The notes under the pieces: model-generated | Databases searched by the model: none | Told to the model about the DNA's origin: nothing | The model's input: only the letters and a program-made list of their open reading frames with translations | Virus record (IMG/VR): IMGVR_UViG_3300022902_000004 | Location: 190,268 to 254,267 of that record | DNA length: 64,000 nucleotides | Origin: a virus | Direction: 5' to 3' (one strand) | In this document: in pieces, positions 451 to 64,000 of the stretch | Layout of the letters: each line of letters opens with the position of its first letter | How positions within the stretch are numbered: the first letter of the stretch is position 1 | Translations under genes and position numbers: made by a program

Positions 451-1629
451 TTATGCTTTCGTTTTTGTAACCATTGATCCAGACGGCACGTAAAAGAAGT
501 CAGCGTCATCTCGAGAGCGAAAAAACTCGAATGTCCCATGTAATTTTGATGAACCGCCTGTGTTGTTCACGCCAACGCCAATGCATGAAAGATGTCCTGA
601 TATTGTACGTACTTTTTGCTTAAACCACCCGACACCATCGCCTGAATAATCAAATGAAAATGTTGTTGTGTCGGTTCCTAAATCATAGCTCACACGGATC
701 CTACCGAATACAGTAGCGCCAAGAACAGCGACCGCAGCGTTTGGTGTGGAGCTAGCAAAAGAAGAATAGTTGTTGAATTCTTGTGTGTCAATATAAAATG
801 CGTTTGCTTCTCTAAGCAGGTTTATCGTCCAAATCTTCGATGTTGACGGCGCGGAAACTATATCTGCAGCACCAATCCACAAAAACACCCCTGGATAGTC
901 TGAAAAGTCCTCTGACAACCAACTCCACTTCGACCAAAATGTGTGTTCATAATCAGCTGATTGTGTTGTGAACTGTTTAAACACACCGGCAATCTTGTCG
1001 CCGGCGATGACTGGTTGATCGATCAACAATCCCTGGTTTGTTATTACGGTCGTCATTCCTGATGAACCTGGATCGAATGTCGTCCAGCCGGCCAATGCCG
1101 ATCTAAATTCATCGTCGAGATCGCCTGCCGTTTCTGGCGGTGCCGAAGGATCCCATTTTTCGAACCTTGCACCCGTTGAAGCAATTGTCACGGAACCATT
1201 CGTGCCCGATGTAATCGTTACATTCGAACCTGCCTTCAAGTATGATGTTCCATCATTCAGTAAGGTCAATGAGCCCGTAATGCCCTCCACAACGTCGAGT
1301 GTTCCTGAGATTGCGGCGGAGCCTGTTGTGAATATTGATTGGCTTACCTCAGAGCTCCAAAAGGTTTCTGGGGTTGCGCCACCTCCTCCACCGGTGTCAA
1401 CCGCCGATCCGTTGAAGTAGAGCACATCATCTACTGCATAAAGTGCATTTGTCGTTTTATTCGGTGCAGTGTCCAGGTTCTGCAGGCCAATTCCATGATT
1501 GAAATTCTGTGTCGGCAAACCAACTTGAAGCCCATTTGGAAATATTACCTTTTGAACCTCATCGTTTTGTCCAGAACGAACGATTAGTTTGTCCTTTTTT
1601 CGTAGTTCACCTTGTTCAATTTTCGGCAT
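451..1629 (-). CDS. Tail fibre / receptor-binding-like protein
   Basis: 392 aa, rich in Gly/Ser/Thr with a GGGGG stretch and repeated 'TGS..SV' segments. It is the last gene of the baseplate-fibre operon. Confidence 0.5.
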   Translation of the reverse strand: MPKIEQGELRKKDKLIVRSGQNDEVQKVIFPNGLQVGLPTQNFNHGIGLQNLDTAPNKTTNALYAVDDVLYFNGSAVDTGGGGGATPETFWSSEVSQSIFTTGSAAISGTLDVVEGITGSLTLLNDGTSYLKAGSNVTITSGTNGSVTIASTGARFEKWDPSAPPETAGDLDDEFRSALAGWTTFDPGSSGMTTVITNQGLLIDQPVIAGDKIAGVFKQFTTQSADYEHTFWSKWSWLSEDFSDYPGVFLWIGAADIVSAPSTSKIWTINLLREANAFYIDTQEFNNYSSFASSTPNAAVAVLGATVFGRIRVSYDLGTDTTTFSFDYSGDGVGWFKQKVRTISGHLSCIGVGVNNTGGSSKLHGTFEFFRSRDDADFFYVPSGSMVTKTKA

Positions 1630-4396: not shown

Positions 4397-5326
4397 TTAC
4401 TTCAACAAGCCCCCGAATGCAATTGAATCATATCCGTAATTATCATTCTGTGAAAACTGGAACCCATGACCGGACACAACAATCGAACTTCGTAGTGCCT
4501 CGACCGGTGATGCGGTGTATGTTATTGATGCCGACACAAATCCGTTTATCATTGTGTTTCTCATCTCGGTGTCGAGGGTGTCGCTCTTGTAAAGCAGCTC
4601 AGCATCATCCGTGTCGTTGAATGGTGCTAACCGTTTATCAGCATCCGAGAATGCCCCTGGTTGGTCGATTGTTCCGAATGTACCAGCGCTATCCAAAAAT
4701 GGAACCGTACCTGCATCACGTAAATCTGTACTATCACCAACCACAATACTTTCACGTTTTTCGTTGGTGATCGACATACTACCTTTTATGCTCCTAGAAA
4801 TGAAGGGCATTTCGATTGAAGATCTGTCGATTACTTTTCTAATTTCAAATGGTTCAATCGTTCCATTGAATGATGACAATGCTGAAACCTGGACCAATCC
4901 TATTGGCTGGACAAGATCCAAAGGATGTGTCGAAAGAATTGATACGGGATCTTGTGTGTCGACTTCTTCAAACGGCTCGCTACCCACAAATAATGATGTA
5001 GTTCCGAAGTCCCGGGTTTCTACCTCGTGGATGACCTCGATGCCAAGCTTGCCATGGGAATCAAGGTTTACCTGCGAACCCGAGTTCACCTCACCCAGGT
5101 TTTCTGGTGAATATGAGTCATTGAAAAACTGTTGGGATTGAAGGACGTCATCGACCGTTCTACCAAATGATATGTTGCCACGTAGCTTCGGAGAAGTAAA
5201 CGAAAATAGCTGTTGCGGGCTTCTGATTTCCACACCTTGTACAAAGGGTGAAAATGAAGCCGAATACCACGGTGATTCGCCGGTGATGACTTGATTTATT
5301 TTGTCGTTGTTTTCGCTCGGCATCAC
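4397..5326 (-). CDS. Hypothetical structural protein
   Basis: 309 aa. It sits between two giant structural genes, with 4-nt overlaps at both ends. Confidence 0.4.
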   Translation of the reverse strand: MMPSENNDKINQVITGESPWYSASFSPFVQGVEIRSPQQLFSFTSPKLRGNISFGRTVDDVLQSQQFFNDSYSPENLGEVNSGSQVNLDSHGKLGIEVIHEVETRDFGTTSLFVGSEPFEEVDTQDPVSILSTHPLDLVQPIGLVQVSALSSFNGTIEPFEIRKVIDRSSIEMPFISRSIKGSMSITNEKRESIVVGDSTDLRDAGTVPFLDSAGTFGTIDQPGAFSDADKRLAPFNDTDDAELLYKSDTLDTEMRNTMINGFVSASITYTASPVEALRSSIVVSGHGFQFSQNDNYGYDSIAFGGLLK

Positions 5327-50142: not shown

Positions 50143-50368
50143 GACCTTTTTGATTTTCCAATGAGTTGGCGGCCCGACTGATGCTTGCGACGATGTTATG
50201 AAATCCCAGGATTATGTCATTCTTGACTTTCTTGTCCTCGGCTTCCAATGCGAATCGAACGAACCCGCACAGCGCACCCAAAATTAGCAAGATACATCCT
50301 AGCCACGCTTCATGGGTGTATAAATACGCCCCACAAATTACAAGGACCTCTGACATTTTGCCTTTCAT
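50117..50368 (-). CDS. Small membrane protein
   Basis: 83 aa with one long hydrophobic helix. Confidence 0.35.
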   Translation of the reverse strand: MKGKMSEVLVICGAYLYTHEAWLGCILLILGALCGFVRFALEAEDKKVKNDIILGFHNIVASISRAANSLENQKGHEKQQTVH

Positions 50369-52305
50369 TACGAATCACGCCATAGGTTGTTAGAAGCATA
50401 TGTCAAGATTTCTTCGGCACTGTCTTCGTTGTAACCGTATTCCTTGATCATCACACCAACCATCTCGCCGTATTTCTTCTGCTGGTCCTTGTCGCGTGTC
50501 TTCGACTTCGTCACAATTCTTGAGATGTCACGGACAGAGTTGATAAGGTATGATTCGATAGCTTCCTTCAATGGCTCATAGGCCTTGAAATTCACCTTCT
50601 CACCACGACGCATCTTGGCAAACATGTAAGCCGTCACATCACTTCTGAAACCATCACGAGCACTCCCGGTGATACCGATTTGCTCCTCGATGGACGTCAT
50701 GAATTTCTCATCAGGCTTCCGCTCTTCTTGTGTAATACGGTCACGCATTCGTTGGTGGGTCGTGTAAGCTTCAGCATTGTCAAGATAGCTATCAAACAAT
50801 GCCTGAGCCTGCTCCTCATATGCCGCGATGAATGCCTTTGCAATCTCCGTATCGAGGATTTTCAGGTATTCTTCGCGGACAACCTTCTGGATAAGCTCAA
50901 GGCAAGAGTATTTGAATTCCTCATCAGCAATCTGCTCTTTTACACAAGCTGTCAGCGACTCAATCAGCGAAACCGGTGTAATCATATTCTTGTCACTACG
51001 AACGAGTGCCATGTCGATTGCCTTCGTGATGAACCGTGTGGAAATTCCGCTCATGCCTTCATGACGGGCCTCTTCCTTCAAGTCACGGAGATCAACCTTC
51101 TTGACGCGGCCTTTCTCAACAACCTCTTCACCGTTGTAGATTTTCATCTTGGTAACCGGGTCGCATTTAGCCGAAGCCTTCAGGCGGGACATAACACTGA
51201 ACATCGAGGCAACACGCAATGTATGTGGAGCAATGTGGGCGTCAAAATCAGACAGGCCGAGCATTTTCTCGTAAATCTTTATTTCCTGATTCAATTCGAG
51301 ACAGTATGGAACATCAATCTTTACGACACGGTCGATGATTGCTTCATTCGTATGCTCCGACTGGAATCGATTCCACTCAGCTTCATTACAGTGAGCCAAG
51401 ATAACACCATCGAAATGGAGCATATCGTTCTTGCCCGGCGATGGAATTCGCTTTTCCTGTGTTGCCGTGATGATTGTGTGGAGGAACTCAATTTCATTCT
51501 TGAAAACCTCGACCAACTCAACAATTCCACGGTTACCAACATTGAATGCACCATTCAAAGACAGCGCCCTAGGATCATCCTCAGCGTATTTGTCTAATTT
51601 GGAAATGTCAACTGAGCCGATGAGCACCGATACATCCTGACTGTTGGCATCCATTGGGGGAACTGATGCGATTCCTCGGCGGCCTCGTTGTGAGAACGTC
51701 GTTTCTTCAATTTCGAAGTTTTCATATTCGCCACCGAGTTCCTTGAGAAGCTTATGACGAGCGACTGGGCTGATGTCACCATCGATTTTTACGTTCAGGG
51801 CCTTCTCAAATGTCTCACGCAAGCTACGTGGGATCAACTGGAGTGGTTCGCCGCGGTGTGGGTCATTCTTCAGGTAAAAGTATTTCTCGCCCTCAATTGA
51901 GGCTTTGATGTGCTCAACCAACGCAGACTTGCCGGCACCAACAGGGCCCATAAGCAGAAGTACCTGGCGTGATTCTTCACCACGATGAGCTGCTGAGTGT
52001 AGGAATGCCATCACATTTTCAATGACACGCTCCATCCCGAAAAAATGCGGCTCGAAGTAGTCGTAGACCTTGATTGCGTCACCGTCGAAAATCCTGTTTT
52101 TTCTTGGGTCACTATCAGGCATTTTTTTAACGCCTGGGCCAGAGAGTGCTTCATACAAACGACGTTGTGCCGTCTTGGCAAGATGTGGATTTTCTTCCAA
52201 CAGCTTGATGTAATCTGCGAAAGTTCCTGAAAACTTCTGTACCGCCTTGCTTTTTACACGCTGACTTTTGATCGCTGCCAAAAGACTCTTTACATTTTTG
52301 CTCAT
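50368..52305 (-). CDS. prkA: PrkA-family serine protein kinase (AAA+ N-domain)
   Basis: 645 aa, the size of YeaG/PrkA. Walker A LLLMGPVGAGKSAL. It is the third gene of a yhbH-spoVR-prkA array. Confidence 0.8.
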   Translation of the reverse strand: MSKNVKSLLAAIKSQRVKSKAVQKFSGTFADYIKLLEENPHLAKTAQRRLYEALSGPGVKKMPDSDPRKNRIFDGDAIKVYDYFEPHFFGMERVIENVMAFLHSAAHRGEESRQVLLLMGPVGAGKSALVEHIKASIEGEKYFYLKNDPHRGEPLQLIPRSLRETFEKALNVKIDGDISPVARHKLLKELGGEYENFEIEETTFSQRGRRGIASVPPMDANSQDVSVLIGSVDISKLDKYAEDDPRALSLNGAFNVGNRGIVELVEVFKNEIEFLHTIITATQEKRIPSPGKNDMLHFDGVILAHCNEAEWNRFQSEHTNEAIIDRVVKIDVPYCLELNQEIKIYEKMLGLSDFDAHIAPHTLRVASMFSVMSRLKASAKCDPVTKMKIYNGEEVVEKGRVKKVDLRDLKEEARHEGMSGISTRFITKAIDMALVRSDKNMITPVSLIESLTACVKEQIADEEFKYSCLELIQKVVREEYLKILDTEIAKAFIAAYEEQAQALFDSYLDNAEAYTTHQRMRDRITQEERKPDEKFMTSIEEQIGITGSARDGFRSDVTAYMFAKMRRGEKVNFKAYEPLKEAIESYLINSVRDISRIVTKSKTRDKDQQKKYGEMVGVMIKEYGYNEDSAEEILTYASNNLWRDS

Positions 52306-52363
52306 AAATTCCCCTGTATAATTTTGACTATAACCATGTCTCTTGGTTTATAAACCTATTCGT

Positions 52364-53734
52364 TCAAATATCCCAAGCATCACCCTCGATCATCGTGTGG
52401 AATTCTATGTTATTTCCCCATAATGACTTGACGTGCTGGATTGTTTTGTCGGCATATTCCAGCTCTAGATCTCTTCCGTCATGCTCATGATGTAAAATCA
52501 ACGTGCCGTTATCTTCCAAAAGATCAACCTTAATAACTGGAATTCCGGCCGCACCGATTGAACGACACAATGCCTCTCTGACTTTCTTCCAGCCATCTTT
52601 GTCTGAGATGTCATCAATTGACCAAGCATATTTCTTTTCACTCCAACTGAAGAGTCCAAGATCCATCGCCAGATCATGTGTGAGGTACTGCCTAATGAAA
52701 GAAACATCGTTCAGTGATTCCCTGGCAACGAAACATTCTTCCAAACCAAAACGCTCTTTGATGTCCTGGAAAATCTTGAAACCAAGATGGTAAGGGTTCA
52801 ATCCACCGATATGCGGCCGAATTACTCCGTTGTGTGATTTCAGTATTGGAAGGTGGTACTCTGAATCCAGCTCTAAATCGTGACAGATTGTATAGTGCCA
52901 AAAACTAGCCCAACCCTCATTCATGATTTTCGTTTGAATCTGGGGCATAAAGTAACACGATTCGTCTCGCACAACCTCAATAATGTCACGTTTCCAATCG
53001 GGCATTTTCCCATGCTCAGCGATGAAGCCCAGGACATCAGGATCAGGTTCTAGAGGAATAACATCGATGTCGTAAACAATATAGCACCCATCTTCACCCT
53101 TCTCGGCGAGCGAACGATACCACTCGACCATTTCTTTATGCGACCGTCGCTCAGCTCCGGTTCTGTTGATTTGATACTGTAATGCATGACATGAATCGAT
53201 TACTGCTTCCACACGATCAATACCGATTCTCGGATCCTCAACATATTCCTTGATTCTCTTTTTTGCTGCACGAAATCGTCCGATGACTGAGTCAGCTCGG
53301 GTTGAAGCAAACATTCTGTTGTTTTTGAAGAAGTCGCTATGTCCTACGCAGTGTGCCATAATAAGGATCTGCAAATATAGCGGGTTCTCGCGCATCAGGT
53401 ATGCAATCGATGGGTTTGAGTTGATGATGAGCTCGTATGGAAGACCTGACACTCCTGCATTGTACGATTGGTGTGTTCTCTCAAACGATTTTCCATATGA
53501 CCAATGATCATAATGCGTCGGCATACCATGATATGACATGTGGCCAATCATCGAGTAGTAATCACAGATTTCATAATTGATCGGGTACCAATCTAATCCA
53601 TAACCTTCAGCGATCTTTTTGATTTTCTCGTCCCACATTTGTAGGTCTTCAATTGCCCATGTCATATTATGCTCCCCTGTTTCCAAACATGACCTTGAAC
53701 GCCGGCCATACATCTTCTTTCGATGCAATTTCAA
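52364..53734 (-). CDS. spoVR: SpoVR/YcgB-family protein
   Basis: ~450 aa, sitting between DUF444 and PrkA. The likely start is the ATG near 53665 (MTWAIEDL…), 2 nt after the upstream stop. Confidence 0.65.
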   Translation of the reverse strand: MKLHRKKMYGRRSRSCLETGEHNMTWAIEDLQMWDEKIKKIAEGYGLDWYPINYEICDYYSMIGHMSYHGMPTHYDHWSYGKSFERTHQSYNAGVSGLPYELIINSNPSIAYLMRENPLYLQILIMAHCVGHSDFFKNNRMFASTRADSVIGRFRAAKKRIKEYVEDPRIGIDRVEAVIDSCHALQYQINRTGAERRSHKEMVEWYRSLAEKGEDGCYIVYDIDVIPLEPDPDVLGFIAEHGKMPDWKRDIIEVVRDESCYFMPQIQTKIMNEGWASFWHYTICHDLELDSEYHLPILKSHNGVIRPHIGGLNPYHLGFKIFQDIKERFGLEECFVARESLNDVSFIRQYLTHDLAMDLGLFSWSEKKYAWSIDDISDKDGWKKVREALCRSIGAAGIPVIKVDLLEDNGTLILHHEHDGRDLELEYADKTIQHVKSLWGNNIEFHTMIEGDAWDI

Positions 53735-54836
53735 CGAGCTTCATATTACTTGAAGCGATTGTTGCAAGGTGTTTTGACAACCTGTCATCACTTGCCCATG
53801 ACATCTCATCGTCAGGGGCAATTTCACAGTATCCGAAAAGCTGGCTAACATTTTTTAGCTTCTCGCCGGCGGTGAGCATGTCGTTTGTATCATACCCAAA
53901 ATTGTCGCCATCTGAACAATGGAAAGTGTAGACGTTCCACAACGAAGGATGAAACCTTTTTTCTATGATTTCCATTGCAAGTTGGTATGCGGTTGAGACA
54001 ACTGTTCCGCCGCTGGACCTTCGAGAAAAGAACTGCTCTTCGTTTACCTCACGAGCTTCAGCATCGTGGGCAATGAAAACGATTTCAACAGAGTCATACT
54101 TTGAACGAATAAACTGGTACAACAGGAAGAAAAAGCTCCGTGCAAGGAATTTCTTTTTCTTCGACATCGACCCAGAGACGTCCATCATCATAACGATTAC
54201 GGCGTTGGTGCTCTCTTTGGATTTGTTTTTGTAGTTTCGGTAGACCAAGTCACCGTCATGAAACGATGTGCTCTTCTCTTCTTCATCTTCGCCATCATTT
54301 TTGCGGCGCTCTTGAGCTTTCAACCTTTTGATTCGGTTGATCGCAGACTTTTTCTTGTCTAGGCGAGGAATTATGCCTTGTGGGCGGTAACCAGAACGCT
54401 TGAGACGATCCGATTTGATTTTTACAAGGGCTTTACGTTCCAAATCTGGAAGTTCAAGTTCATCAAATAGGTACTTGGCAAGTTCGTCAAGGGTAATTTC
54501 AACCTCGTAAACATCATCACCGGCCTTATTTCCGGCCTTCTGGCCTTCCCCTTTCTTACCATCCTTTCTTTTGATGATTTGTTTGCGATCAAGATCACGC
54601 CCGGGAGCCGAACCGACTTTTTTGTTTTGCTCGTTTGAGCCATAAACAAAGCGGTACTCCTTGATTCCCTTCACGGGAATGCGGAATTTCTTCTTACCAT
54701 CTTGGCCGATAATAGATTCATCGGCAACAATATCATGAATTCCTTCACGTATTGCTTTTTCAATTTTTTGTTTATGGCGCTTACGATCTGATGCAGACCG
54801 GTCGGCAATCGTCTTGTGATGTGAGAAAACTGACAT
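53667..54836 (-). CDS. yhbH: YhbH/YeaH-family DUF444 protein with vWA-like MIDAS motif
   Basis: 389 aa with a MIDAS-type DVSGSM motif. A -10 TATAAT and a GGAG Shine-Dalgarno sit in the 54837-54885 gap. Confidence 0.75.
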   Translation of the reverse strand: MSVFSHHKTIADRSASDRKRHKQKIEKAIREGIHDIVADESIIGQDGKKKFRIPVKGIKEYRFVYGSNEQNKKVGSAPGRDLDRKQIIKRKDGKKGEGQKAGNKAGDDVYEVEITLDELAKYLFDELELPDLERKALVKIKSDRLKRSGYRPQGIIPRLDKKKSAINRIKRLKAQERRKNDGEDEEEKSTSFHDGDLVYRNYKNKSKESTNAVIVMMMDVSGSMSKKKKFLARSFFFLLYQFIRSKYDSVEIVFIAHDAEAREVNEEQFFSRRSSGGTVVSTAYQLAMEIIEKRFHPSLWNVYTFHCSDGDNFGYDTNDMLTAGEKLKNVSQLFGYCEIAPDDEMSWASDDRLSKHLATIASSNMKLVEIASKEDVWPAFKVMFGNRGA

Positions 54837-61916: not shown

Positions 61917-62663
61917 TTATGCTGCAACTCGAAGCAGCGTTTTGAACCCAGTTTTCTTGAGCTCAAGGAAGTATTTGTGGCCAGCACCACCGAAACGATT
62001 CTTGGTCGTCTCGAGCATACGCATTCCGTACAGCTCAGAGCTGGGATTTAGCTCGATGGAAAGCTCGATCATGGCATCAACCATGTGTTTCAGGACGTTT
62101 TTGCCTGAGAATTTGCCATCTTTACCAACCTGGCCAATCACGAAAGCAATCGAATTGGTTTCCTTACACCAATCTGTAATCATGCTCAAGCAACGCTCAG
62201 GGGACTTGCCGTTTGTGATTCCAGGACCGTACTTGCCATCATTCACAGCCTGAAGGCTGTCAACGACCAAGATAAACTGCTTTTTTGGATGCTGGAGTCG
62301 AAGCTCCTCACACTGGCGAAGCAGCTCGGGAACCATCTCCTCTTCACCTACAGCGAAGCCATGCTTGATATTCAGGCGCTCTGCAACGAGTTTGACCTGA
62401 AACAGACTCTCCTCGGCGGTATTGAAGGCAACATTGTGACCTAGACTCGACAGGCTTTCGCAAAGTTCGAGCATCATCGTGGATTTACCGGCACCAGGTG
62501 TTCCAGTGAACAAAGTGCATGTGCTTGGGGTGAGTCCAAGACCGCCCATTGCACCATCGATGTAATCCCGACCAGTTTTAACTTTCACACGGAGTGCAGC
62601 CGGAACAACAACGTTGTTGATGTTGGTACCGAAAGCGAAGCCTTTGCGAGTTGACAATTTCAT
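61917..62663 (-). CDS. RecA-fold ATPase (Sak4/KaiC/RadA-like)
   Basis: 248 aa with Walker A FTGTPGAGKST and a RecA-like core. An AAGGA Shine-Dalgarno and a conserved promoter motif lie upstream. Confidence 0.6.
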   Translation of the reverse strand: MKLSTRKGFAFGTNINNVVVPAALRVKVKTGRDYIDGAMGGLGLTPSTCTLFTGTPGAGKSTMMLELCESLSSLGHNVAFNTAEESLFQVKLVAERLNIKHGFAVGEEEMVPELLRQCEELRLQHPKKQFILVVDSLQAVNDGKYGPGITNGKSPERCLSMITDWCKETNSIAFVIGQVGKDGKFSGKNVLKHMVDAMIELSIELNPSSELYGMRMLETTKNRFGGAGHKYFLELKKTGFKTLLRVAA

Positions 62664-62722
62664 GTGATTTAATCCTTGATCAGGCTGAGTTATGACTCGT
62701 TACCATCCCCGGCAACATATAT

Positions 62723-62752
62723 ATTATACCACGATTTTCGGACTCTTACACG
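62723..62752 (-). promoter_or_regulatory. Conserved promoter-like motif copy A (minus strand: CGTGTAAGAGTCCGAAAATCGTGGTATAAT)
   Basis: Extended -10 TGGTATAAT on the minus strand about 65 nt upstream of the RecA-like ATG. Near-identical copy at 63876..63905. Confidence 0.5.
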
Positions 62753-62756
62753 TAAT

Positions 62757-63050
62757 CTACTTAACGTTGCAAAGAATTTCTGGTTTGACGGCGCCGTCTG
62801 GCAACGCTACGACACAATGGACGCTGGCATTTGAGATGTGCGATTTATGGGCCCGCCGGCGATCCTGTGGCGAATCGAAGAACCCTCCCCATGTCAGCAC
62901 CCCTAGGACAAGCGCAGTGCCGAAAAGGCTCGCGAAGAAGTTGGTCTTAGTTTCTTTTCCATGCAACGTCATGACGACAAAAAGGCTGACGACGGTGAGA
63001 CATAGATAAATAATTGCCGCTGCGCTCATTTGTTTTTCCTCTTTTTCCAT
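62757..63050 (-). CDS. Small membrane protein
   Basis: 97 aa with two hydrophobic helices. Confidence 0.4.
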   Translation of the reverse strand: MEKEEKQMSAAAIIYLCLTVVSLFVVMTLHGKETKTNFFASLFGTALVLGVLTWGGFFDSPQDRRRAHKSHISNASVHCVVALPDGAVKPEILCNVK

Positions 63051-63517
63051 GCAATGAATTGATCCAACTCATCGCTGCTAATGTTTTTCACTATTTCCTG
63101 TTTGGCTTCCCACTCGGCAAGCTCCCTCGTATACTTCTTGTCTGCTTTCTTACAATCTCGCTCGAACCGCTTGTAATTTTTGAGCTGCTCATCGTAATCC
63201 GGATTTTCGAGTTCAACTGAGACGTTTACCTCGACCTCAACGCTGACCTCTTCGTCCTCATCCCATGGCCGCTGAGTCTCGATCAGGACATCTGGATCAT
63301 TAATTCGAATGAACCCAGGCCGATCTCTCCACAATTCTGCATCTTCTAGAACAGTCTGCTTTCGCTCTTCAAGCTCCCCGAAATCAATAGTTGATTCTCC
63401 GTTGAATGAAAAAACTGGGGAGCGCACGATTACAACACTTGTTTTTGAGGGACTCTGGACAAGTTTGATAAGCGTGCGCTTTGGGCGCAGCCCTTTTGGG
63501 CCTAATGCGAGTTTCAT
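63026..63517 (-). CDS. Hypothetical protein
   Basis: 163-aa ORF rich in charged residues. Confidence 0.4.
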   Translation of the reverse strand: MKLALGPKGLRPKRTLIKLVQSPSKTSVVIVRSPVFSFNGESTIDFGELEERKQTVLEDAELWRDRPGFIRINDPDVLIETQRPWDEDEEVSVEVEVNVSVELENPDYDEQLKNYKRFERDCKKADKKYTRELAEWEAKQEIVKNISSDELDQFIAWKKRKNK

Positions 63518-63538
63518 TTTATTTCTCCGTTCTCAAAA

Positions 63539-63608
63539 TGGTTCCCAACCGGGGAGTCGAACCCCGCGTCCCGCCTGCAGTTCAGGACCTACGCCAAAAT
63601 TATTGGGA
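63539..63608 (-). tRNA. tRNA-like element (canonical T-arm + acceptor stem + CCA; body non-canonical) - partial tRNA or att-site-like
   Basis: Minus strand reads TCCCAAT…CGGGG-TTCGACT-CCCCG-GTTGGGA-A-CCA. That gives a T-loop TTCGACT, a 5-bp T-stem and a 7-bp acceptor pairing with the 5' TCCCAAT. I could not hand-fold the D and anticodon arms canonically. Total length is 70 nt. Confidence 0.4.
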
Positions 63609-63654
63609 AAACGTCAAACTTTATCTTTTTCCTAACATTCCATGTTTTTTGATG

Positions 63655-63684
63655 CCCTAGGTCGACGCCGACCTTAACTTAGGG
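63655..63684. promoter_or_regulatory. Nested hairpin CCCTA-…GGTCG-ACGC-CGACC…-TAGGG
   Basis: Inverted repeats read from the sequence, just upstream (in minus-strand terms) of the tRNA-like element. Confidence 0.35.
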
Positions 63685-63799
63685 CTGGTCTCGGATGCGA
63701 TTCATTACGCCCTCCTGACGATGTCTAGCTTTGTAATCACACAATTTATTCCGTTCATGTTATTTTCGCCGCCCCCGGCAGTGGGTCACATTTTCGGGG

Positions 63800-63830
63800 G
63801 CCCTCGTGGGCTTGGCATTATTTTGCTCCA
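63800..63830. promoter_or_regulatory. GC-clamp hairpin GCCCCCG-N17-CGGGGGC containing two ATTTTCG(G) motif copies
   Basis: 7-bp GC stem with a 17-nt loop. It lies downstream of promoter motif copy B in the leader preceding the tRNA-like element. Confidence 0.4.
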
Positions 63831-63875
63831 TTTAGTTTATTGACTGTTTTAGAGTCGCATCCCGGTGACATATCC

Positions 63876-63905
63876 ATTATACCACGATTTTCGGTGCTTT
63901 ACACG
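63876..63905 (-). promoter_or_regulatory. Conserved promoter-like motif copy B (minus strand: CGTGTAAAGCACCGAAAATCGTGGTATAAT)
   Basis: Matches copy A at 26 of 30 positions, and the -10 is TGGTATAAT. It overlaps the last codons of the partial upstream gene. Confidence 0.5.
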
Positions 63906-64000
63906 CGATGATGACAAACTCTTCAGGGTAAAACGCAGCGACGAATCCGTCAATGAGCACGTCATAAATCGGGTCATGGGTCTCCCCGGCGATCTTACCT
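63877..64000 (-). CDS. 3' end of a minus-strand gene entering from beyond the window
   Basis: An open minus-strand frame from 64000 ends …EEFVIIACKAPKIVV at TAA 63879-63877. Only 41 codons are visible. Confidence 0.3.
   Translation of the reverse strand, partial: GKIAGETHDPIYDVLIDGFVAAFYPEEFVIIACKAPKIVV

What the first reader, a model, noticed from the sequence alone, without database searches (positions are those of the whole stretch)
63539..63830. tRNA-like element with canonical T-arm/acceptor/CCA but aberrant body, preceded by two hairpins and a promoter copy
The minus strand carries a textbook T-loop (GGGG-TTCGACT-CCCC), a 7-bp acceptor stem and a 3' CCA. The element is only 70 nt long, and I cannot fold canonical D and anticodon arms (CCTG/CAGG gives a 4-bp stem with a 5-nt loop).

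Upstream on the same strand lie promoter copy B, a 7-bp GC hairpin (63800-63830) and a nested hairpin (63655-63684). The arrangement promoter, then structured leader, then tRNA-like, then gene is reminiscent of phage att cores built on tRNA 3' halves, and of tRNA-like processing signals.

It could be one of four things: (a) a functional but unusual phage tRNA, (b) a degenerate tRNA, (c) an attP-type copy of a host tRNA 3' end, or (d) a processing or stability element.
Basis: seen in the sequence. Interest (0 to 1): 0.5.

Follow-up and report, generated by a model that had tools for sequence, protein, structure and literature searches.

The report
Half-tRNA relic in phage gene leader
A 70-base stretch in front of an orphan gene of an uncultured giant phage copies the upper half of a tRNA perfectly but has no usable anticodon arm, so it is probably a tRNA-derived remnant that may still be cut by tRNA-processing enzymes; it is not a working tRNA and not an integration site.

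Summary
The tRNA-like element is real (window 63539-63608, minus strand). It has a 7-bp acceptor stem, a 5-bp T stem, the loop UUCGACU, A73 and an encoded CCA. A motif this complete is expected about 0.001 times per 64-kb window.

It is not a tRNA. ARAGORN and Rfam find nothing except the T arm, and a cloverleaf appears only at settings that give about 400 false calls per shuffled window.

No tRNA in 185,579 reference genomes, in IMG/VR or in JGI metagenomes shares its T arm plus 3' acceptor strand. No integrase was seen among about 50 scanned ORFs. The attP idea is therefore unsupported.

The element lies about 260 nt into a roughly 350-nt leader, 21 nt upstream of an ORFan (p163). The leader, p163 and a small membrane protein form a 1.1-kb block bounded by two copies of a 54-nt promoter/stem-loop repeat. 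The closest relatives have either nothing or a different cassette at this position, as with PeSL shuffling in T4-type phages.

All available copies are at least 99.94% identical, so covariation cannot be tested.

Best reading: a tRNA-derived, non-decoding "top-half" element that keeps the RNase P and 3'-end determinants and probably punctuates the early transcript. Modest interest.

The parts
63539..63608 (-). tRNA-like 'top-half' element, 70 nt. Acceptor 5' strand 63602-63608; 7-nt connector AAUUUUG 63595-63601; long irregular body arm (GCGU/ACGC and CCUG/CAGG around a 4x4 internal loop, with a 5-nt apical loop) 63566-63594; T arm 63550-63566; acceptor 3' strand 63543-63549; A73 at 63542; CCA 63539-63541.
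   Evidence: Sequence; minimum-free-energy fold, stable in three sequence contexts; chance estimate; not called as tRNA or tmRNA.
63853..63906 (-). Promoter/stem-loop repeat, copy B (CGTGTAAA-N-CGTGGTATAAT-GGATATG-degenerate hairpin). TATAAT is at 63876-63881 and overlaps the stop codon (63877-63879) of the upstream 70-aa gene. Presumed start of the leader transcript near 63868.
   Evidence: Repeat family D1, 11 copies in L008.
63609..63867 (-). Leader upstream of the tRNA-like element. It contains: a GC hairpin at 63771-63801, which competes with the small hairpin GCCC-ACGA-GGGC at 63800-63811; a nested hairpin at 63654-63685; and three mini-ORFs with Shine-Dalgarno sequences (63786-63818, 10 aa; 63705-63758, 17 aa; 63679-63705, 8 aa). 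The last two overlap in the sequence UAAUG.
   Evidence: No minus-strand terminator-like site lies between the promoter and the gene.
63515..63538 (-). AU-rich trailer UUUUGAGAAC, Shine-Dalgarno GGAG (63525-63528) and the ATG of p163 (63515-63517). The CCA ends 21 nt before the ATG.
63026..63517 (-). p163, the ORFan cargo gene of the cassette. It has no Pfam hit, no phage-database hit, and no homologue other than itself among 5.8 billion proteins.
   Evidence: Structure model uninformative (pLDDT 52.7).
62757..63050 (-). p97 (alternatively called as 90 aa), a small hydrophobic, probably membrane protein. Second cargo gene; it overlaps the end of p163.
   Evidence: gene calls.
62700..62753 (-). 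Promoter/stem-loop repeat, copy A, upstream of the KaiC/RadA-like ATPase gene (61917-62663). It forms the other boundary of the cassette. Cassette-specific DNA spans about 62756-63861.

Best explanation
The element is a non-decoding, tRNA-derived 'top-half' tRNA-like element (a pseudo-tRNA). It keeps an intact acceptor/T-arm minihelix with ACCA. In place of the D and anticodon arms it has a single irregular helix.

It is transcribed from an early promoter/stem-loop repeat as part of a roughly 350-nt leader of a strain-specific ORFan cassette (p163 + p97).

It retains the features that tRNA end-processing enzymes read:
- a 12-bp acceptor/T coaxial stack;
- a canonical T loop;
- U at position -1;
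- A73-CCA;
- an AU-rich trailer.

The most likely behaviour is that RNase P cuts at its 5' end and the tRNA 3'-maturation pathway (RNase E or Z plus exonucleases) cuts after the CCA. This would sever the structured leader from a short-leadered p163 mRNA, in the manner of tRNA punctuation.

Shown: the anatomy, the non-tRNA status, the cassette context and the absence of a host match. Inferred: the tRNA ancestry, transcription from the repeat, and the cleavages. Whether selection maintains the element is unknown.
For: - Perfect top half, with a chance expectation of about 0.001 per window.
- Sense orientation relative to all neighbouring genes.
- No terminator between the promoter copy and the gene.
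- The same three-way-junction fold is predicted for three stretches: the element alone, with flanks, and within the full leader.
- The body fails every tRNA model.
- U at -1 (63609), the ACCA, and the trailer UUUUGAGAA are read directly from the sequence.
- Real tRNA genes occur in the same neighbourhood in the wider phage family: a tRNA-Leu lies directly after the ATPase in L005. A tRNA relic here is therefore plausible.
- The block is one interchangeable cassette between promoter repeats. L017 has an empty site with a chimeric repeat, and L034 carries a different cassette with a 20-nt leader. This kind of gene turnover leaves relics.
Against: - There is no expression or cleavage data.
- There is no covariation. 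All 10+ contigs that carry the element are at least 99.94% identical, and no diverged copy exists in the metagenome, IMG/VR or genome scans.
- Folding energy is no better than shuffled sequence (z = -0.5).
- No donor tRNA was found.
- U(-1) can pair with A73, giving an 8-bp stem, which could shift or weaken RNase P cleavage.
- A single deletion does not obviously explain why both the D arm and the anticodon arm are unrecognisable.
Confidence: 0.5

Rival explanations
1. Inert relic. The element is a decaying tRNA gene fragment left by cassette turnover. It is either not processed or processed with no consequence for the phage.
For: - The element occurs only in one near-clonal phage population.
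- Close relatives do without the whole block.
- The leader is an outlier in length and contains what look like orphaned Shine-Dalgarno/mini-ORF remnants.
- There is no thermodynamic signal.
Against: The top half has no defect in any of its 35 positions, while the 35-nt body is unrecognisable in both arms. That asymmetry fits a very recent single event or selection on the top half. If the RNA is transcribed, an intact minihelix with ACCA is expected to be an RNase P substrate from general knowledge, whatever its origin.
Confidence: 0.25
2. Selected tRNA mimic. One version is a stable tRNA-shaped 3' cap of a roughly 330-nt leader RNA. The other is a decoy or sponge for enzymes that act on tRNA acceptor/CCA ends, such as host tRNA-targeting toxins, the CCA-adding enzyme or an aminoacyl-tRNA synthetase.
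For: - The top half and the encoded CCA are intact.
- The body arm has about 12 layers, roughly the length of the D plus anticodon arm. That would preserve an L shape without a decoding loop.
- The element sits in an early, hypervariable ORFan region, which is where anti-defence genes typically lie. This last point is inference.
Against: - There is no conservation beyond one population.
- There is no known identity set: C3:G70 rules out AlaRS/tmRNA-type charging (read from the sequence).
- No associated enzyme gene was recognised.
- The idea is purely speculative.
Confidence: 0.08
3. Chance resemblance. A GC-rich hairpin happens to carry TTCGACT and sits next to complementary 7-mers.
For: - The bare motif GGTTCRANTCC alone is expected 0.25 times per window.
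- Covariance models see only the T arm.
- Folding z-scores are about 0.
Against: The joint motif (5-bp T stem, canonical 7-nt loop, 7/7 acceptor directly abutting it, then N-CCA) was absent from 400 shuffles and is estimated at about 0.001 per window. The element is also on the transcribed strand and in non-coding DNA.
Confidence: 0.08
4. attP-type core: a copy of a host tRNA 3' end used for integration.
For: The 3' half of the element looks like a tRNA 3' end with CCA.
Against: - No tRNA gene in 185,579 species genomes carries this T arm plus acceptor 3' strand, even with 4 degenerate positions.
- No integrase was found in about 50 scanned ORFs.
- The genome is a phage of at least 318 kb with a myovirus-type baseplate protein (gp25).
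- The 5' acceptor strand is also present, which an attP core does not need.
- The block behaves as a promoter-repeat-bounded cassette inside the phage.
Confidence: 0.02
5. A functional decoding tRNA of unusual shape, with a reduced D arm as in some mitochondrial tRNAs: Ala-UGC by the ARAGORN -mt call.
For: ARAGORN in -mt mode and at -ps60 draws a cloverleaf with anticodon UGC.
Against: - Those settings yield about 10 and about 405 calls per shuffled window, and the element is not even reported at -ps65 or -ps70.
- Position 33 is C instead of U, an A.G mismatch closes the loop, and the D stem has 3 mostly wobble pairs.
- C3:G70 is incompatible with alanine identity (established knowledge).
Confidence: 0.02

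Closest known systems
Canonical bacterial/phage tRNA (Rfam RF00005) and phage pseudo-tRNAs
   Same: 7-bp acceptor stem, 5-bp T stem, T loop UUCGACU (T54 T55 C56 R57 A58 N59 Y60), discriminator A73, encoded CCA, and sense orientation within a phage transcription unit.
   Different: There are 35 nt instead of about 41 between the acceptor and T stems. There is no D stem and no 5-bp/7-nt anticodon arm, and position 8 is A rather than U. ARAGORN does not detect it, and Rfam tRNA scores it below the 10-13-bit T-arm-only hits.
tRNA-like domain of tmRNA (RF00023)
   Same: Acceptor plus T arm without a D stem, with a long helix where the anticodon arm would be. The sequence GGACGCGGGGUUCGACUCCCC resembles the E. 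coli tmRNA 3' region GGACGCGGGUUCAACUCCCG (the E. coli sequence is from memory). The best Rfam hit is the tmRNA T arm.
   Different: C3:G70 instead of G3:U70. There are no pseudoknots and no tag reading frame. The helix is closed by a 5-nt loop, so there is no mRNA-like domain. ARAGORN finds no tmRNA, standard or permuted.
tRNA-like processing signals: mascRNA at the MALAT1/MEN-beta 3' end, mitochondrial tRNA punctuation, and RNase P cleavage of bacterial polycistronic mRNAs
   Same: A non-decoding tRNA-shaped module embedded in a longer transcript. Its acceptor/T half could direct RNase P and 3'-end enzymes and so define RNA ends. The T arm matches the mascRNA model at 15.6 bits against a gathering score of 42.5.
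   Different: There is no homology, only analogy. This is a bacterial virus, the element lies in a 5' leader rather than at a 3' end, and cleavage has not been demonstrated.
PeSL cassettes (promoter-early stem-loop + ORFan) of T4-type phages (PMC2839356; PMC4122927)
   Same: Repeated strong sigma70-like promoter plus a GGGG...CCCC stem-loop flanking ORFans. Presence, absence and replacement of cassettes between close relatives, with the junction inside the repeat.
   Different: Here the stem-loop lies downstream of the -10 element, at the start of the transcript. In T4-type PeSLs it acts as a terminator for transcription coming from upstream (PMC2839356). The phage is not demonstrably T4-like. 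No PeSL cassette is reported to carry a tRNA-like element: the word 'tRNA' does not occur in PMC2839356.
Phage attP cores built on tRNA 3' halves
   Same: Contains a tRNA-type T arm, acceptor 3' strand and CCA.
   Different: No matching host tRNA, no integrase seen, and the 5' acceptor strand is also present. The element is part of an intra-phage cassette.

Membership tests
tRNA (RF00005) | Detected by tRNA covariance or heuristic models at curated thresholds | tested here: not met
   ARAGORN 0 genes. Rfam gathering 0 hits. Permissive scans give T-arm-only hits of 13 bits or less.
tRNA (RF00005) | Acceptor stem, T arm, discriminator and CCA in canonical geometry | tested here: met
   Direct reading; regex and pairing scan.
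tRNA (RF00005) | D arm, plus a 5-bp anticodon stem with a 7-nt loop carrying U33 | tested here: not met
   The minimum-free-energy fold has no D stem and a 5-nt apical loop. The best forced cloverleaf has C33, an A.G mismatch and a 3-bp wobble D stem, found at a setting with about 405 false calls per window.
tmRNA (RF00023 / permuted RF04321) | G3:U70 alanine identity pair | tested here: not met
   Pair 3:70 is C:G.
tmRNA (RF00023 / permuted RF04321) | mRNA-like domain with a tag ORF and pseudoknots between the two acceptor strands | tested here: not met
   Only 35 nt lie between the acceptor and T stems. ARAGORN tmRNA search is negative. Rfam aligns the T arm only.
Bacterial RNase P substrate (functional class, not a sequence family) | 12-bp acceptor/T coaxial stack, canonical T loop, 3' RCCA, and U preferred at -1 | tested here: met
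   7 + 5 bp, UUCGACU, ACCA and U at 63609 are all read. These criteria come from established knowledge of RNase P.
Bacterial RNase P substrate (functional class, not a sequence family) | Actual cleavage at the -1/+1 bond | not testable with these tools
   Needs an in vitro assay or RNA-end mapping.
attP tRNA-3'-end core | Identity to the 3' part of a host tRNA gene | tested here: not met
   The degenerate 22-mer gave 7 hits in 185,579 genomes, and none is a tRNA.
attP tRNA-3'-end core | Integrase encoded by the phage | tested here: inconclusive
   None among about 50 ORFs of the 64-kb window, but the genome is at least 318 kb and most of it was not examined.
PeSL-type mobile regulatory cassette (context of the element) | Repeated promoter plus stem-loop motifs flanking ORFans | tested here: met
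   11 copies of a 54-nt repeat in 20 kb. p163 is an ORFan.
PeSL-type mobile regulatory cassette (context of the element) | Insertion, deletion or replacement between close relatives, with breakpoints in the repeats | tested here: met
   L017 is empty with a chimeric repeat, and L034 carries a different cassette.
PeSL-type mobile regulatory cassette (context of the element) | Stem-loop acts as a terminator for transcription from upstream of the promoter; the phage is T4-type | tested here: not met
   The stem-loop follows the -10 element. Terminator activity was not tested. No close phage relative exists in INPHARED.

The most novel reading that the evidence does not exclude
The element is a purpose-built tRNA mimic. 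It would be a top-half/L-shaped decoy expressed early in infection. It could sponge host enzymes or toxins that act on tRNA acceptor/CCA ends, or it could be CCA-repaired or charged to cap and stabilise a roughly 330-nt regulatory leader RNA. It would be carried on a mobile early-gene cassette. Nothing found here excludes this, because only one sequence variant exists and there are no expression data.
Probability: 0.05. Interest if true: 0.75.

Novelty: new member of a known kind. Interest (0 to 1): 0.3.

Why it matters
If the element is cut by RNase P and the 3'-end enzymes, it would be an example of tRNA-style punctuation of an early mRNA in a giant marine phage. It would also show that pseudo-tRNAs can travel inside promoter-bounded ORFan cassettes.

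In practical terms, standard tRNA finders and Rfam miss elements that have a perfect acceptor/T half but no anticodon arm. Two further such elements turned up by accident in metagenomic phage-like contigs, so the class may be under-counted.

As it stands, this is a single unconserved instance of uncertain function, and its importance is modest.

Tried and rejected
- **Phage database searches.** DNA and protein searches of INPHARED phages with the region and with p163 gave no match. PrkA gave only distant hits of about 30%.
- **IMG/VR.** The exact 28-mer and the degenerate 22-mer gave nothing. p163 has no relatives. ATPase relatives at about 53% identity lack any T-arm motif upstream.
- **Covariation.** Impossible. 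Contigs L008-L016 and L033 are 99.94-100% identical, and the 400-nt region is invariant.
- **Single permitted metagenome scan.** It returned one contig of the same phage plus unrelated hits, and no diverged copy.
- **Relaxed ARAGORN.** The 'tRNA-Ala(UGC)' call was rejected because the same settings give about 405 (-ps60) or about 10 (-mt) calls per shuffled window.
- **AlphaFold model of p163 without an alignment.** pLDDT 52.7, unusable, and not taken to fold search.
- **Internal promoter for the element.** TTGACG at 63612-63617 has no acceptable -10 element at 16-18 nt (read).
- **Alternative 5' acceptor strands.** UUUUGGC and GUUUGAC are nearly all G-U pairs or include a mismatch, so they were rejected.
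- **tmRNA (standard or permuted), Y-RNA-like and CRISPR-repeat readings.** Only sub-threshold T-arm or stray hits.
- **Walking the rest of the genome (at least 318 kb) for a donor tRNA.** Not attempted. Each look-up yields only about 10 kb.

Full report
**1. What is in the sequence**

On the minus strand, 63608-63539 reads UCCCAAU-AAUUUUG-GCGUAGGUCCUGAACUGCAGGCGGGACG-CGGGG-UUCGACU-CCCCG-GUUGGGA-A-CCA.

- The acceptor stem has 7 pairs, one of them U-G.
- The T stem has 5 G-C pairs.
- The T loop fits the canonical T54-T55-C56-R57-A58-N59-Y60 pattern.
- Position 73 is A and the CCA is encoded.

RNAfold gives the same three-way junction whether the element is folded alone, with flanks, or inside the whole leader. 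That junction consists of the acceptor, a 7-nt connector, one long irregular arm and the T arm.

The energies are no better than those of shuffled sequence (z = -0.5 to +0.7).

**2. Is it more than chance?**

The T-loop core GGTTCRANTCC alone is not remarkable: 0.25 are expected per window.

The combined motif is a different matter. A 5-bp T stem, a canonical 7-nt loop and a 7/7 acceptor placed directly after the T stem occur 0.08 times per dinucleotide-shuffled window. None of 400 shuffles also had NCCA. This implies about 0.001 per 64 kb.

In about 190 kb of related real phage DNA, the same scan recovered only a genuine tRNA-Leu, plus poor 6/7 hits without CCA.

I conclude that the element is tRNA-related rather than coincidental.

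**3. It is not a tRNA or any catalogued RNA**

- ARAGORN finds no tRNA or tmRNA in the window.
- Rfam at gathering thresholds finds nothing.
- Permissive Rfam scans of 701 nt and 101 nt align only the 17-nt T arm, to tmRNA (13.2 and 10.4 bits), mascRNA (15.6), Tymo-TLS (8.8) and permuted tmRNA (8.1).
- ARAGORN run locally calls 'tRNA-Ala(UGC)' only at -ps60 or in metazoan-mitochondrial mode. The drawn cloverleaf has C33, an A.G pair closing the loop and a 3-bp, mostly wobble D stem.
- Those settings produce about 405 and about 10 calls per shuffled window, and the element is not reported at -ps65 or -ps70. The cloverleaf therefore carries no weight.
- C3:G70 excludes alanine/tmRNA-type identity.

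**4. No host tRNA match and no integrase**

The degenerate pattern GGGTTCRANTCCCNNGTTGGGA (T arm plus acceptor 3' strand) gave the following results:

| Collection | Hits | tRNA among them |
|---|---|---|
| 185,579 species genomes | 7 (I calculated about 9 expected by chance) | none |
| IMG/VR | 0 | n/a |
| JGI metagenomes | 14 | see below |

Of the 14 metagenome hits, one is this same phage. The rest are unrelated sequences, one weak tRNA, and some uncalled tRNA-like elements.

Pfam scans of about 50 ORFs found no integrase. They did find:
- a gp25 baseplate protein;
- PrkA, DUF444 and SpoVR;
- ClpP and PhoH/PIN;
- an XPD-like helicase;
- a large sugar-modification cluster.

The same proteins occur on contigs of up to 318 kb. 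This is therefore an uncultured jumbo phage carrying a myovirus-type baseplate protein (gp25). The attP idea is not supported.

**5. Context: the main new result**

p163 is encoded identically on at least 24 metagenomic contigs. These contigs are 99.94-100% identical to the window, and the 400 nt around the element are invariant. They give no information on selection.

Upstream of the window lies an array of small early-type ORFs. Each is preceded by a 54-nt repeat of the form CGTGTAAGA-N12-CGTGGTATAAT-gtATATGTTG-CCGGGGAtaCCGG, that is, an extended -10 promoter followed by a GGGG/CCCC stem-loop. There are 11 copies in 20 kb.

Phages whose ATPase is 90-98% identical differ exactly between these two copies:
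- L017 has a single chimeric repeat and nothing between.
- L034 (a scaffold named TARA) has a different pair of small genes with a 20-nt leader.
- The window phage has the 350-nt leader, the tRNA-like element, p163 and p97.

This matches the PeSL-mediated modular shuffling described for T4-type phages (PMC2839356, PMC4122927). One difference is that the stem-loop here follows the promoter.

p163 has no homologue among 5.8 billion proteins. It has no Pfam or phage hit, and its AlphaFold model is unusable.

**6. The leader**

- No terminator-like site lies between the promoter and p163 on the minus strand.
- The 7-bp GC hairpin exists at 63771-63801, not at 63800-63830. It competes with a small GCCC/GGGC hairpin.
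- The nested hairpin is at 63654-63685.
- None of these is more stable than chance.
- The leader carries three mini-ORFs with good Shine-Dalgarno sequences, two of them coupled through UAAUG. They may be micro-genes or remnants.
- The CCA ends 21 nt before the p163 ATG. It is followed by UUUUGAGAACGGAG.

**7. Mechanism**

*Shown:*
- a perfect acceptor/T minihelix with ACCA on the transcribed strand;
- U at position -1;
- an AU-rich trailer;
- an aberrant lower half.

*Inferred from established knowledge of tRNA maturation:* if transcribed, such an RNA should be cleaved by RNase P at U1 and trimmed to the CCA. That would release the roughly 260-nt upstream leader and leave a p163 mRNA with a leader of about 20 nt.

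I commit to a tRNA-derived, non-decoding element that acts as a processing ('punctuation') site, at confidence 0.5.

The rivals and their confidences are:
- inert relic, 0.25;
- selected mimic, decoy or 3' cap, 0.08;
- chance, 0.08;
- attP, 0.02;
- decoding tRNA, 0.02.

The asymmetry between a flawless 35-nt top half and an unrecognisable 35-nt body argues mildly for recent origin or for constraint on the top half. It cannot separate the two.

**8. Comparison and novelty**

The element works like mascRNA-type or mitochondrial tRNA-punctuation signals. In shape it resembles the tRNA-like domain of tmRNA. It fails the membership tests for tRNA, tmRNA and attP cores.

It is best filed as a new, isolated member of the loose class of phage pseudo-tRNAs and tRNA-like elements, embedded in a PeSL-like cassette.

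Interest is modest (0.3). There is a single unconserved instance and no functional data. The motif is clean, and the cassette context is informative.

Noticed in passing
window 62700-62753 and 63853-63906 (-); L008 1094-10818: A family of at least 11 copies of a 54-nt early promoter plus GGGG/CCCC stem-loop repeat precedes small ORFs. The slot before the KaiC/RadA-like ATPase holds different cassettes in close relatives: L017 is empty and L034 carries other genes. This is a PeSL-like modular shuffling system in a phage that is not obviously T4-like.
   Followed up: yes
window ~16500-43100 (-): A very large sugar/polysaccharide-modification cluster inside a phage. It contains several GT1/GT4/GT2 glycosyltransferases, a DegT aminotransferase, GDP-mannose dehydratase and epimerases, UDP-glucose dehydrogenase, a cytidylyltransferase, a PfkB kinase, TPP-dependent E1/transketolase-like proteins and a B12-binding radical SAM enzyme. 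GC content drops to 0.37-0.39 at 32-38 kb.
   Followed up: partly
window 50368-54836 (-): A complete PrkA / DUF444 (YeaH) / SpoVR trio, with Pfam E-values of 1e-106 to 1e-135. It lies near a ClpP protease, an XPD-like helicase and a PIN-PhoH protein. The nearest phage PrkA homologues (Ralstonia RsoM2USA, Thermus phages, 600-kb metagenomic phages) are only about 30% identical.
   Followed up: partly
window 63679-63818 (-): Three mini-ORFs with good Shine-Dalgarno sequences in the leader: MPSPRGPPKM (63786-63818), MNGINCVITKLDIVRRA (63705-63758) and MNRIRDQP (63679-63705). The last two overlap in UAAUG, as in translational coupling. The stop codon of the third sits in the 5' arm of the nested hairpin.
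   Followed up: no
L039 ~1356-1412 (+) and L048 ~4509-4565 (-): Two related metagenomic contigs carry a roughly 57-nt element with only an acceptor stem and a T arm (GUCCCAY...CYGGG-UUCGAUU-CCCRG-GUUGGGAC). The T stem shows a compensatory C-G to U-A change between the two contigs. In L048 the element lies 3 nt upstream of a CUA-anticodon (amber suppressor) tRNA. This may be another 'top-half only' tRNA-like element that tRNA finders miss.
   Followed up: partly
L043 1704-1790 (-), L044 868-960 (-); L043 2310-2738 (-): Phage-like tRNA arrays (15 and 5 tRNAs) contain an extra tRNA-like stretch with a good T arm. Neither ARAGORN nor Rfam calls it. L043 also carries a GOLLD RNA (187 bits) with an embedded tRNA.
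   Followed up: no
L018 3822-6473 (-), L023 3867-6518 (-): Relatives whose ATPase is about 73-75% identical encode an 883-aa protein with major-vault-protein domains (MVP_shoulder, and Vault_3 as a weak hit) right next to the ATPase gene. That is unusual for a phage.
   Followed up: no
L005 6780-6866 (+): A more distant relative (ATPase 51% identical) has a genuine tRNA-Leu(UAA) immediately downstream of the ATPase gene. tRNA genes therefore do occupy this neighbourhood in the wider phage group.
   Followed up: partly
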